A stretch of 34,131 nucleotides of DNA from the IMG/VR virus record IMGVR_UViG_2541047807_000011. One strand, given 5' to 3'. The DNA is from a virus. Its lineage: Duplodnaviria; Heunggongvirae; Uroviricota; Caudoviricetes. Within the stretch, counting starts at the first letter, position 1, and every line of letters starts with the position of its first letter. Positions 21,001 to 24,000 of this stretch are shown here, piece after piece. Made by a program: the position numbers.

Positions 21001-24000
21001 GGCTTGCCACAACCTGTGGCAGACGGGTGAACAGGTATTTATGCAGCTCGCTTTTTGCCGGGTTGCGGACGTAGTGCGGGAAATAGTTTTCGACAAAATA
21101 ATCGTAGCCCGTCACCGGGTCGCAGACTGCCGCCCGGCGGGCCTGTGTGGCCTGCGGGTTAACATCGAACCCCAGACATTCAGCCTCGATGGTCTGGCGG
21201 AGGTTGGCGATGTACTCCTGCAGGCTTCTCTGAAACTCTTTAATGGAAAGTTTACGTTTTGCCACGTCACACCTGCGCTGCTTCTGCCTGCGCTTTTTCG
21301 ATACGTGCGCAGGCGATATCAAAATACTGGTTAGTCATTTCAATGCCGGTAAACCGTCCGCCACGGGCAAGTACAGGGATGGCGGTGGTGCCGCTTCCCA
21401 TAAACGGATCGAGAACATGCGCATCCGGTGCCAGCGGTTTAACCAGCTCGGCCATCAACTGAACTGGCTTTGCCGTCATATGCAGTTTTTCGGACGGGAC
21501 AACGCGCTGCGTAATCACACCCGGGAACGGGCCACCGTGCGGGCATTTGTCGAGTTTTCCGTTGCTGCCCCAGACCACATACTCGGCCTGATGCCGGAAA
21601 TAGCCGGTGTGTGGCGCACGGGAAGCCTGCGTTTTATCCCAGACAACAAGACCACGCCACAGCACACCACCGGCCTGAAAAACGTCGGTCATGGTGGGAA
21701 GCTGTCGCCAGTCACTGAACACCATGACATAACCACCGGGGCGCACAAGGCGGGCAGCCCCGGACATCCACAGGGTGCTCCAGTATGCCCAGCTGCGCTG
21801 GTCGCGGTTATCCCCGCTGAACTCGGCATACTGGGTGTGACCGACATACTTGTCCGAAGGGGCCATGCTGCGGTCTGATTTGTGTGTGCCACCACTGCTG
21901 TAAGGCGGGTCGGTAATGACGGCATCAAAACGTTCAGATAACGCCGGCAGCACATCAAGAACATCACCGCAATACAACGTTGCGTTACCAATAATCTGTT
22001 TTTGCATTACAAATCCCGAATATCAGACGGCCCGGAAAACCGGGCCGCTGTGGTTAACTGAAATTATCCTCAAGCTCTTTAGCGAAGCCTTCGAGCACCT
22101 CAAGAAACGGGGCATACTGTGCCGGGTGACGCTCCTTGATGAACGCGCCGAGCCGCTGCACCACTTCCAGTGCCGTGGCGAGCCGATCGGTTTCCGGCAG
22201 GATTTTTTTGCTGCTGGCCACCGCCTTACTGAGACTGTCAGACAGACTCGCCAGCAGTTCGACGGACTCCTGCGGCGGGATGTCCGGGTTCTGGTTCAGC
22301 CGCTCAAGCGTCGTCTGACACTTCACCACCAGACTGATAAGTACGGTGCGGGCGACACTTTCCAGCCCGTCACCGGCGAGCGCGTGAGCGGCCCGCAGCT
22401 TGTCCCAGTCGTCGCCGTTCTTCATCGCCTGCGTTTTCCAGCGCCGCGCGGTATCGTGCGGCACGGCGTATTTCATGGCGACGATATCCAGCGGAAGCTG
22501 GTCAAAGATGTACCCGTTACGGACTTTGTCCCTGATATCCTGTGACCACGCCATTAAGTGTCCTTCTGAGCCTGTTCAATCCTGCGCTGAACTTCGTCGG
22601 GATTTTCAAGAACGAACACGTTTTTCCCGGTATCCAGTTCAATGACCGTGCCATCATGTGTACCGTACTGACGGTAAAAATGGGTGATGCGTTCAGCGAG
22701 CACCATGACAGCGCCAGCACCTCCTGAACCTCTGTATTCTGTAAATCTGATAATGCTCACTATGTCAGACCTCAAAAAATCAGTTCTGCGAACACTGCCG
22801 GATACCGTCAATAATCCGGCAGACCTGCGCCGCCGCGTCAAACAGCTGGCCCGCTCTGTTAATGTCTGTGCATCCCACCGGAAGCAACATCACCAGAAAC
22901 AGGGCCAGAACACAGCGCGCGGCTTTGCGTGGCGTTCTGTGGGTCCAGTGCTGACGCGTCATACCGCCACGCGCTCCTTCAGCCAGCCATAAACAAACGA
23001 TTCGTTAGCCTCGCGTTTCTCCGCCAGTTCCAGATAGCGGTCCCCCTGCGTACAGTTCAGGGCCGTCAGCATCACCCGTTCACCGTCCTGACCGCGATTA
23101 TTCAGGAAGGCGCGCAATGCACTGATGGTACGAGGCCCGATGCGTCCGTCTGCGTCCATATCCGGGTACAGCCTGCCGCGCAGATTGAACACATTCAGCC
23201 AGCGCTGAAGCATTCTGGACGCCACGGTTGGCCCCATATTCACACCGGTATCACACAGCTCTGCGGCAATATCAGGGGATAATGCGGCGATCTGGTCAAA
23301 TCGCGGGCCATACCAGTAATCGGCTTCAAGGATGTCCAGTGCCTGTTCGCGGGTTAAATCGCGCATATCGCCACGGTATCCGTGGGCGCGGGCGACTTTT
23401 TCCGTAATGCCCCATTTGGTCGGACCGCCCTTATCATCCGGGTGATTGACATAACCACCTTCTTTGCCCAGGACTTCATCAAAAATTTTATCTTTTGATT
23501 TCATGTGGATGCCTCAGTAACGAAAGGATTTTTGACAAATTCCCGTGCGCCCACACGATAAGCGCACAGAAAACCAGATTCAGCGCCACAACCAGCCAGC
23601 TGGAATGTGTGTACGTACCGGACAGCCAGCGGAACGGGATGATGACGTAGCCGAGCATCAGCCAGTACGCCAGCCAGGTAATCATCGGTTTATGCGCTGC
23701 ACCGTGGCGGCGATACACAAACAACCCCAGCACAATGGCGAGACACAGCCAGACGTTCACGATACCGGCAAGGCTACTTTCCATTTCCACCTCCTCCGCC
23801 GCGCAGTCTGGAAAACAGGCCGAACAGCGATGAAATTTCCTGTTGATAAAGAAAGGTCAGTATCTTGATGGATAACGCCGAGACACCGACCGCACACAAT
23901 GCATCGAGCGGCTTGTCGTTGTAGTGGGTCAGCCACTGCATCAGTGACGCAGCCACGCCAGCCCCCAGAACGCCAACCACAAACGCGACGAGCAGGTGAA

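What the first reader, a model, noticed from the sequence alone, without database searches (positions are those of the whole stretch)
21267..22054. DNA methyltransferase inserted between terminase small and large subunit genes, overlapping terL by 56 nt
A beta-class MTase (DPPY then FxGxG order) sits inside the packaging module with no cognate restriction enzyme in the window. This points to an orphan anti-restriction or epigenetic methylase expressed late with packaging, distinct from Mu's Mom system, which lies at the other genome end. A GC hairpin (22028-22047) separates it from the terS-like gene.
Basis: partly seen in the sequence, partly recalled or inferred. Interest (0 to 1): 0.55.

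Follow-up and report, generated by a model that had tools for sequence, protein, structure and literature searches.

The report
Orphan DNA methylase in Mu-like prophage
A real and intact but ordinary phage DNA methyltransferase gene sits as an optional cassette just upstream of the large terminase gene of an E. coli Mu-like prophage, most likely to methylate phage DNA late in infection so that it escapes host restriction enzymes.

Summary
The ORF at 21267-22007 (minus strand, 246 aa) is a genuine beta-class amino-methyltransferase. It passes PF01555, has DPPY before FMGSG, folds like M1.HpyAVI and CcrM, and has dN/dS of 0.04-0.08. It lies between a DUF1804 gene (small terminase by position only) and terL in a Mu-like prophage about 98% identical to one in E. 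coli E2348/69.

The claimed 56-nt overlap with terL is a longest-ORF artefact. The conserved terL start is GTG 21265, one base after the methylase stop codon.

The gene is an optional cassette. Of 55 closely matching E. coli genomes, 35 have it and 20 lack it. In those 20, 7 nt replace window 21276-22018. The GC hairpin and the terL ribosome-binding site occur in both forms, so they belong to the backbone.

No restriction enzyme, Com or Mom was found. A roughly 70%-identical homologue in Rahnella sits behind a com gene at the mom position. This supports a late-expressed, Mom-like anti-restriction role.

Methylases next to terL are already described in the literature. Target sequence and activity remain untested. 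Verdict: new member of a known kind, low interest.

The parts
21267..22007 (-). Methyltransferase gene: 246 aa, beta-class N6/N4 amino-methyltransferase, ATG 22005-22007, TGA 21267-21269
   Evidence: ORF list. PF01555 E=6.5e-23. phrog_67 E=1.1e-55. Best solved relative is M1.HpyAVI, with DPPY and FMGSGTT aligned. AF2 model pLDDT 81, with Foldseek top hits M1.HpyAVI, CcrM and M.BceJIV. dN/dS 0.04-0.08.
21900..21911 (-). Motif IV, DPPY (residues 33-36), catalytic
   Evidence: Read directly from the sequence. Invariant in 20 homologues (A1).
21390..21404 (-). Motif I, FMGSG (residues 202-206), AdoMet binding
   Evidence: Read directly from the sequence. F202, M203, G204, S205 and T208 are invariant in A1; residue 206 is Gly or Ala.
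21276..22018 (-). Cassette-specific DNA (743 nt), replaced by 7 nt (TGTATAC or TGCATAC) in otherwise ~98%-identical prophages that lack the methylase
   Evidence: Alignment A2 of the window against L094 and L095. The span difference of 736 nt agrees.
22014..22017 (-). Weak Shine-Dalgarno-like GGGA, 6 nt upstream of the methylase ATG
   Evidence: Sequence. Purine-rich equivalents occur in the Yersinia, Serratia and Limnobaculum orthologues.
22027..22048 (-). GC hairpin (core GGCCCGG-TTTT-CCGGGCC at 22029-22046) just after the DUF1804 stop codon. It is a backbone element, not part of the cassette.
   Evidence: Fold. Unique in the window. Present in methylase-minus alleles. Not terminator-like by the scan. 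Restricted to the close clade.
21263..21275 (-). CAGGTGTGACGTG: the terL Shine-Dalgarno (AGGTG, 21270-21274) and terL GTG start (21263-21265). The same bases also encode the last two methylase codons (Q, V) and its TGA stop.
   Evidence: Identical in methylase-plus and methylase-minus alleles. CAGGTGT(G/A)ACGTG is conserved in Yersinia and Serratia.
19625..21265 (-). Large terminase gene (546 aa from GTG 21265)
   Evidence: phrog_38 E=1.8e-143 and TIGR01630. PGAP start in relatives.
22054..22554 (-). DUF1804 gene (166 aa). Candidate small terminase or DNA-binding protein by position only.

Best explanation
This is a solitary (orphan) beta-class DNA amino-methyltransferase, most likely N6-adenine specific. 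It is carried as an optional cassette in the late operon of a Mom-less Mu-like prophage, between the DUF1804 gene and terL. The proposed mechanism is inferred, not shown. The gene is silent in the lysogen and is transcribed only with the lysis and packaging genes. Its translation ends inside the terL ribosome-binding site (TGA-C-GTG), so ribosomes finishing the methylase can re-initiate on terL. The enzyme then methylates newly replicated phage DNA before or while it is packaged. Progeny genomes would therefore be protected against restriction systems of the next host that share its still unknown target. Functionally it would be an analogue of Mu Mom, but with different chemistry, position and control.
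For: Shown.
- The methyltransferase is intact: Pfam, motif and solved-structure matches and the fold match.
- Purifying selection is as strong as on the flanking genes (dN/dS 0.04-0.08).
- The order DUF1804, methylase, terL, Mu portal recurs in Yersinia, Serratia and Limnobaculum prophages and in 17 of 80 IMG/VR loci.
- Presence or absence varies among ~98%-identical prophages: 35 versus 20 E. coli genomes, with exact boundaries.
- The methylase stop codon is embedded in the conserved terL SD and start region.
- No sigma-70-like promoter lies nearby; the only hit in 19000-26000 is upstream of mor.
- No restriction-enzyme family was found in the window, and no Com-like ORF.
- The E2348/69 relative has no com or mom.

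Context of homologues.
- A ~70%-identical methylase overlaps a Zn_ribbon_Com gene at the right end of a Rahnella Mu-like prophage, which is the mom position.
- A 55%-identical one follows 'gpCom' in phage Chuche.

Literature.
- Methylases replace Mom in other Mu-like prophages (PMC3299994).
- Methylases beside terL are predicted to modify DNA at packaging (PMC6536676, PMC4738411).
- Orphan methylases are inserted and deleted in the packaging module of a phage the authors call Mu-like (PMC7468147).
Against: Nothing here shows activity, target base, target sequence, expression timing or protection. No close characterised homologue was found, and the best solved relatives are only ~22% identical. 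DPPY favours adenine but does not exclude N4-cytosine. Translational coupling is inferred from geometry only. One third of close relatives do without the gene, so any benefit is conditional. The window stops short of the prophage's right end, so absence of mom is shown only for relatives.
Confidence: 0.7

Rival explanations
1. The enzyme has very relaxed or very short specificity, like Hia5/Hin1523 or M.EcoGII. It would then be a true broad-spectrum substitute for Mom rather than a site-specific methylase.
For: This prophage lineage lacks mom. A ~70% homologue occupies the com-mom slot. The protein is minimal (246 aa), with only ~55 poorly structured residues where a target-recognition domain would lie. 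Non-specific methylases are known in Mu-like prophages and other E. coli prophages, and they are silent in lysogens (PMC3299994, PMC5778455).
Against: The Hia5 family is Dam-like, with DPPY near residue 194, so the motif order is different. M.EcoGII has 349 aa and a four-helix-bundle recognition domain that is absent here. I did not have the M.EcoGII sequence for a direct comparison. The closest solved relatives are sequence-specific according to my own knowledge rather than any result here (M1.HpyAVI GAGG, CcrM GANTC, M.BceJIV GTWWAC).
Confidence: 0.15
2. The methylase is part of the packaging machinery. It would mark a pac site or the DNA substrate so that terminase can act, as Dam methylation does for P1 pac, or it would work in physical complex with terminase.
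For: It sits directly between the presumed small and large terminase genes, and its stop codon abuts the terL start. The literature predicts that terL-linked methylases modify DNA during packaging (PMC4738411, PMC6536676).
Against: Twenty of the 55 close E. coli matches and 7 of 20 near-identical IMG/VR loci lack the gene, yet their DUF1804 and TerL proteins are 98-100% identical. Packaging therefore cannot depend on it. Close homologues sit in unrelated positions: the lysis cassette, the com-mom slot, and P2-like tail or end regions.
Confidence: 0.05
3. It is a lysogenic-conversion gene. It would be expressed in the lysogen and would change host gene expression epigenetically, or protect the host chromosome.
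For: Orphan methylases such as Dam and CcrM can be regulators (PMC7544214). The gene is an accessory cassette, as morons are.
Against: No promoter-like site lies upstream and no terminator downstream. The 46-nt upstream spacer holds only the backbone hairpin. The gene is embedded in, and abuts, late genes. GC content equals that of its neighbours. Comparable prophage methylases are silent in lysogens (PMC3299994, PMC5778455).
Confidence: 0.07
4. It is an inactive relic (a pseudo-methyltransferase).
For: None beyond the lack of experimental data.
Against: The catalytic and AdoMet motifs are invariant across 20 homologues. The ORF is full length. dN/dS is 0.04-0.08. The fold model is confident.
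Confidence: 0.03

Closest known systems
Small beta-class N6-adenine methyltransferases with solved structures (M1.HpyAVI 5HEK/5HFJ; also CcrM 6PBD, M.BceJIV 8URK)
   Same: Same fold and motif order, and a similar size to M1.HpyAVI (232 aa). DPPY and FxGxG align.
   Different: Only ~22% identical, so the target sequence cannot be transferred. The gene here is phage-borne with no restriction enzyme found; the genomic context of those enzymes was not examined here.
Methylases that replace Mom in Mu-like prophages (Hia5, Hin1523, Nma1821; phage B3 ORF48), PMC3299994
   Same: A Mu-like prophage without Mom carries an adenine-methylase-type gene instead, with the same presumed late anti-restriction role. 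A ~70% homologue of the window's enzyme sits behind com at the mom position in Rahnella.
   Different: The Hia5 family is Dam-like with the opposite motif order, and B3 ORF48 has DPPY at residues 178-181. There is no BLASTP similarity to B3 ORF48. They sit at the mom position (B3: among the tail genes) under Com control. The window's gene sits between DUF1804 and terL with no Com.
Mu Com-Mom system
   Same: A late-expressed DNA modification that protects phage DNA from restriction (inferred analogy).
   Different: Mom is an acyltransferase-family enzyme that makes acetamido-adenine (PMC3299994). Here the enzyme is a Rossmann-fold methyltransferase, with no Com and a different genome position.
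M.EcoGII / M.EcoGI (non-specific beta-class prophage methylases of E. coli O104:H4), PMC5778455
   Same: Beta class, E. coli prophage-borne and orphan. M.EcoGII is silent in the lysogen, and the same is expected here.
   Different: 349 aa with a four-helix-bundle recognition domain (PMC11551740), against 246 aa without one. The sequences were not compared directly.
ParB-terminase large subunit (ParB-Tls) DNA-modification loci, and flexible methylase islands in phage packaging modules (PMC6536676, PMC4738411, PMC7468147)
   Same: A methylase immediately upstream of terL, gained and lost between near-identical phages.
   Different: The upstream partner is a DUF1804 protein, not a ParB-domain protein. 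The host phage here is an enterobacterial transposable (Mu-like) prophage.

Membership tests
Beta-class N6/N4 DNA amino-methyltransferase (Pfam PF01555) | Score above the Pfam gathering threshold | tested here: met
   82.3 bits against a cutoff of 26.7, E=6.5e-23
Beta-class N6/N4 DNA amino-methyltransferase (Pfam PF01555) | Motif IV (D/S-P-P-Y/F) lies N-terminal to motif I (FxGxG) | tested here: met
   DPPY at residues 33-36 and FMGSG at 202-206. DPPY, F202, G204 and S205 are invariant in 20 homologues.
Beta-class N6/N4 DNA amino-methyltransferase (Pfam PF01555) | Fold matches solved beta-class methyltransferases | tested here: met
   AF2 pLDDT 81, pTM 0.82. Foldseek probability 1.0 to M1.HpyAVI, CcrM, M.BceJIV, M.MboIIA, M.PvuII and M.RsrI.
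Beta-class N6/N4 DNA amino-methyltransferase (Pfam PF01555) | AdoMet-dependent methyl transfer to DNA; target base and target sequence | not testable with these tools
   Needs an enzyme assay or a methylome. DPPY, rather than SPPY/F, only suggests adenine (own knowledge).
Orphan (solitary) phage methyltransferase | No cognate restriction endonuclease next to it or in the element | tested here: met
   The neighbours are DUF1804 and terL. There are no nuclease families among the early and tail ORFs scanned. None is annotated in the E2348/69 prophage. Small unannotated ORFs cannot be strictly excluded.
Orphan (solitary) phage methyltransferase | Protects phage DNA from restriction | not testable with these tools
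   Needs plating and restriction assays.
Mu Com-Mom modification system | Mom-type acyltransferase, Com zinc-finger regulator, position at the right genome end | tested here: not met
   The enzyme is a Rossmann-fold methyltransferase. The window has no credible CxxC...CxxC ORF: the single pattern match (near 5313, + strand) was judged spurious. The gene lies mid-genome, and the E2348/69 relative has no com or mom.
Hia5/Hin1523 non-specific Dam-like methylases | Dam-like motif order, with DPPY near residue 194 (the mutated catalytic Asp is D194/D191) | tested here: not met
   DPPY is at residues 33-36 here. The family description comes from PMC3299994. The sequences were not compared directly.
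M.EcoGII-type non-specific beta-class methylase | [quoted passage not shown] | tested here: not met
   The protein has 246 aa. The model has no helical bundle between residues ~125 and 180, in contrast to the description in PMC11551740. No direct sequence comparison was made.
ParB-Tls DNA-modification locus | Modification gene immediately upstream of terL | tested here: met
   The methylase stop codon lies 1 nt before the terL start.
ParB-Tls DNA-modification locus | ParB-domain gene, or ParB fusion, on the other side | tested here: not met
   The upstream gene matches only DUF1804 (the sole other Pfam hit, OSCP, is below its cutoff), even at E<=5.
Moron (autonomous accessory gene with its own promoter and terminator) | Own promoter upstream and own terminator downstream | tested here: not met
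   No promoter-like or terminator-like site flanks the gene. The upstream hairpin belongs to the backbone.
Small terminase subunit (claimed for the DUF1804 neighbour) | Homology or fold match to a known small terminase | tested here: inconclusive

The most novel reading that the evidence does not exclude
The methylase could be a compact, relaxed-specificity adenine methylase that moved out of the Com-controlled mom slot into the terminase operon. There its synthesis would be translationally coupled to TerL, and it might act on DNA as that DNA is threaded for packaging. Protection would then be confined in time and in cis to DNA destined for capsids, with no need for a Com-type safety switch.
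Probability: 0.1. Interest if true: 0.55.

Novelty: new member of a known kind. Interest (0 to 1): 0.2.

Why it matters
If the inference holds, this clade of enterobacterial Mu-like prophages protects its DNA with a small methylase instead of Mom, and switches the gene in and out as a clean 743-nt cassette. That would be a tidy natural pair (near-identical prophages, ~98% over the region compared, with and without the gene, including one in the EPEC reference strain E2348/69) for measuring what an orphan phage methylase is worth against host restriction. It would also help test translational coupling into terL. It does not open a new category. Orphan phage methylases, methylases beside terL, and methylases replacing Mom are all already described.

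Tried and rejected
1. The 56-nt overlap with terL was rejected. It depends on a TTG start whose upstream codons lie inside cassette DNA that is absent from methylase-minus alleles.
2. The hairpin as a cassette boundary or terminator was rejected. It is present without the methylase, is not terminator-like, matches no Rfam family, and occurs only in the close clade.
3. Foreign origin judged by composition: GC is 57%, against 56.6-59.5% for the neighbours, so there is no signal.
4. A Com-like regulator in the window: none found.
5. Homology to B3 ORF48: none.
6. Homology of the DUF1804 protein and TerL to Mu gp27 and gp28: not detectable by BLASTP. The packaging genes are therefore not Mu-type in sequence, although the portal is.
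7. Small-terminase identity of DUF1804 by fold search: unspecific hits only.
8. The genome-contig scan with the methylase profile returned mostly distant relatives. None of them had DUF1804 or terL nearby.
9. Pfam scans of the small ORFs that fill the DUF1804-terL gap in other phages found nothing.
10. Target specificity from the literature was not obtained. No paper was found on BPP-1 Bpm and no E2348/69 methylome. The Fang 2012 and Iyer 2013 papers are not held. The M.EcoGII sequence was not obtained; phage P13374 carries other methylases.
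Full report
**What the window is.** The window is almost entirely a Mu-like transposable prophage read on the minus strand. It carries a Mu-type transposase, an AAA ATPase, GemA, Mor, holins, an endolysin, a Mu-type portal, Mu F, and contractile-tail and baseplate genes. The 19600-22900 region is 97.8-98.1% identical to prophages in 55 complete E. coli genomes. One of these is the prophage that interrupts eutC in EPEC E2348/69.

- It matches PF01555 (N6_N4_Mtase) at 82.3 bits against a cutoff of 26.7, and phrog_67 'DNA methyltransferase' at E=1.1e-55.
- DPPY is at residues 33-36 (window 21900-21911). 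FMGSG is at residues 202-206 (window 21390-21404). That is the beta-class motif order.
- Both motifs align to the solved beta-class adenine methylase M1.HpyAVI. DPPY and four of the five FMGSG positions are invariant in 20 homologues; residue 206 is Gly or Ala.
- An AlphaFold model (pLDDT 81, pTM 0.82) matches M1.HpyAVI, CcrM, M.BceJIV, M.MboIIA, M.RsrI and M.PvuII at probability 1.0.
- dN/dS against the Yersinia and Serratia orthologues is 0.04-0.08, the same range as the flanking genes.

**Neighbours.**
- Downstream is the large terminase (phrog_38, E=1.8e-143; TIGR01630), followed by a Mu-type portal.
- Upstream is a DUF1804 protein (PF08822, E=2.8e-52).
- Calling DUF1804 a small terminase rests on position. 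SuMu and most DUF1804 phages place it directly before terL. Its predicted shape, an N-terminal three-helix unit followed by long helices, is also what I would expect of a small terminase (own knowledge).
- TerL is likewise not Mu gp28-like by BLASTP.

**The 56-nt overlap is an artefact.** It appears only if terL begins at the first in-frame TTG (21322).
- PGAP and the gene calls on record for the fetched contigs begin terL at GTG 21265, giving 546 aa.
- The string CAGGTGT(G/A)ACGTGGCAAA is conserved in E. coli, Yersinia and Serratia. Limnobaculum also starts terL with GTG-GCA-AAG.
- In prophages that lack the methylase, the DNA that would encode the 19-residue extension is simply absent.
- The true layout is methylase TGA (21267-21269), one base, then terL GTG (21263-21265). 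The terL Shine-Dalgarno AGGTG (21270-21274) is formed by the last methylase codons.

**It is an optional cassette.**
- A distant-mode search found 55 E. coli genomes matching at 95-99% identity. In 35 the match spans the methylase gene. In 20 the DUF1804 gene and terL match at ~98% but the methylase is missing.
- Alignment A2 gives exact boundaries. Window 21276-22018 (743 nt) is replaced by 7 nt (TGTATAC or TGCATAC).
- Both the hairpin plus GTCTGATATT on one side, and CAGGTGTGAC-GTG on the other, are common to the two forms.
- The junctions show no clean direct repeat, so this is neither a simple deletion nor a simple insertion. They look like old alternative alleles.
- In IMG/VR, among near-identical loci, 13 carry the gene and 7 do not.
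- Of 80 DUF1804 loci in total, 17 have the order DUF1804, methylase, terL. All 17 have DUF1804 at least 60% identical to the window's.
- In the remaining loci the DUF1804-to-terL gap ranges from -7 to 1571 nt. It holds assorted small ORFs with no Pfam match. This interval is therefore a variable slot.
- GC content is not anomalous: 57%, against 56.6-59.5% for the neighbours.

**The hairpin.** GGCCCGG-TTTT-CCGGGCC (22029-22046) is real and stable and unique in the window.
- It belongs to the backbone. It is present in methylase-minus alleles. In relatives the loop varies (TCTT, TTAT, TTCT, AACGT) while the stem stays constant.
- It is absent from more distant DUF1804 phages.
- It lacks a T-run and matches no Rfam family.
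- Its role is unknown; it might be a weak attenuator or a transcript-stability element.

**Orphan status and Mom.**
- No restriction-enzyme family was found among the window ORFs scanned, and none is annotated in the E2348/69 prophage.
- The window has no Com-like zinc-finger ORF.
- It stops just short of the prophage's right end. In E2348/69 that end carries only tail-fibre genes before eutC, with no gin, com or mom. The methylase-minus relative also shows no mom.

**Where the family travels.** Homologues occur in several contexts.

| Identity to the window's enzyme | Host element | Position |
|---|---|---|
| 70-83% | Yersinia, Serratia and Limnobaculum Mu-like prophages | same slot, DUF1804 to terL |
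| 62% | Salmonella Mu-like prophage | between holin and lysozyme |
| 61% | E. coli HK97-like prophage | before HNH and terS |
| 43-65% | P2-like (pro)phages | various, including tail and end regions |
| ~52% | Bordetella phage BPP-1 (bpm) | genomic context not examined |
| ~70% | Rahnella Mu-like prophage | overlaps a Zn_ribbon_Com gene at the right end, the mom position |
| 55% | Phage Chuche (P2-like) | follows 'gpCom' |

The Rahnella and Chuche cases are the most telling. This family is repeatedly wired like Mom, under a control that, in Mu, keeps a potentially harmful modification enzyme off until late (PMC3299994). In the window that control is absent. The gene instead sits inside the late lysis and packaging gene block. 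It has no promoter-like site of its own; the only sigma-70-like site in 19000-26000 precedes mor.

**Most likely mechanism (inferred).** The gene is silent in the lysogen and transcribed late with the lysis and packaging genes. It is translated from a weak ribosome-binding site (GGGA, 22014-22017). Termination inside the terL initiation region allows coupled terL translation. The enzyme methylates replicated phage DNA, probably at adenine N6 of an unknown and possibly short motif, before packaging. Progeny would then resist restriction in the next host. Confidence is about 0.7.

**Rival explanations.**
- A relaxed-specificity Mom substitute, about 0.15.
- A lysogenic epigenetic role, about 0.07. 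The lack of a promoter argues against it.
- A role in packaging itself, about 0.05. The methylase-minus prophages, whose DUF1804 and TerL proteins are 98-100% identical, argue against it.
- An inactive relic, about 0.03.

**Comparison with what is known.**
- Hia5, Hin1523 and Nma1821 replace Mom in other Mu-like prophages. They are Dam-like, with the opposite motif order, and sit at the mom position (PMC3299994).
- B3 ORF48 shows no similarity.
- M.EcoGII is a beta-class prophage methylase, but it has 349 aa and a four-helix-bundle recognition domain that is missing here.
- Methylases immediately upstream of terL are a described theme, the ParB-Tls loci (PMC6536676, PMC4738411). Insertion and deletion of orphan methylases in the packaging module of a phage its authors call Mu-like has been reported from metagenomes (PMC7468147).
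- RefSeq already annotates the E2348/69 copy of this gene as 'DNA-methyltransferase'.

**Verdict.** The gene is real and intact, and the broad functional guess is reasonable. The overlap and the meaning given to the hairpin are wrong. The feature is a new member of a known kind, and interest is low (0.2).

Noticed in passing
window 33-56 and 1881-1904 (segment 33-1904): There are 24-nt inverted repeats whose core AAACCAAGGTTT looks like a hix/gix-type DNA-invertase crossover site (own knowledge). They flank a ~1.85-kb segment holding oppositely oriented tail-fibre and tail-fibre-assembly genes, like Mu's G segment. Window 33-319 aligns to the E2348/69 prophage in inverted orientation, so the segment appears flipped between the two. 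No invertase gene lies in the window or at the E2348/69 prophage end.
   Followed up: partly
window 21680-21820 (methylase residues ~64-109); loci L100, L109, L115: E. coli prophages carry two methylase alleles, about 100% and about 92% identical in protein. The flanking DUF1804 and terL genes stay 99-100% identical. The differences cluster in residues 64-109, where nucleotide identity drops to 78-84% over ~200 nt. This looks like a recombination patch, and it lies outside the expected target-recognition region.
   Followed up: partly
L183 3365-4250 (Rahnella contaminans): A ~70%-identical methylase overlaps the 3' end of a Zn_ribbon_Com gene at the right end of a Mu-like prophage. So this beta-class family also substitutes for Mom in a com-mom type operon. 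Phage Chuche (L001 5778-6720) has the same gpCom-plus-methylase pairing in a P2-like genome.
   Followed up: partly
IMG/VR loci L125-L178, interval between DUF1804 and terL: In more distant DUF1804-type Mu-like phages this interval ranges from -7 to 1571 nt. It holds various small ORFs, including one recurrent 62-129 aa family, with no Pfam match. The interval is a general hotspot for accessory genes.
   Followed up: partly
window 24308-24336: A 13-bp GC-rich hairpin lies in the 128-nt gap between the mor-side operon (ORF 24355-24642) and the first holin gene (23774-24226). It probably marks the boundary between the middle and late transcription units.
   Followed up: no
window 19625-21265 and 22054-22554: The prophage is called Mu-like and has a Mu-type portal. 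Even so, TerL and the DUF1804 protein show no BLASTP similarity to Mu gp28 and gp27. The front of the packaging module is therefore of a different lineage from Mu's.
   Followed up: partly
window 320-1888, 24331-24645, 28846-29323: These are the segments with no BLAST match to the E2348/69 prophage, which is otherwise 92-98% identical. They cover the tail-fibre variable part and two short stretches on the early/middle-gene side.
   Followed up: no
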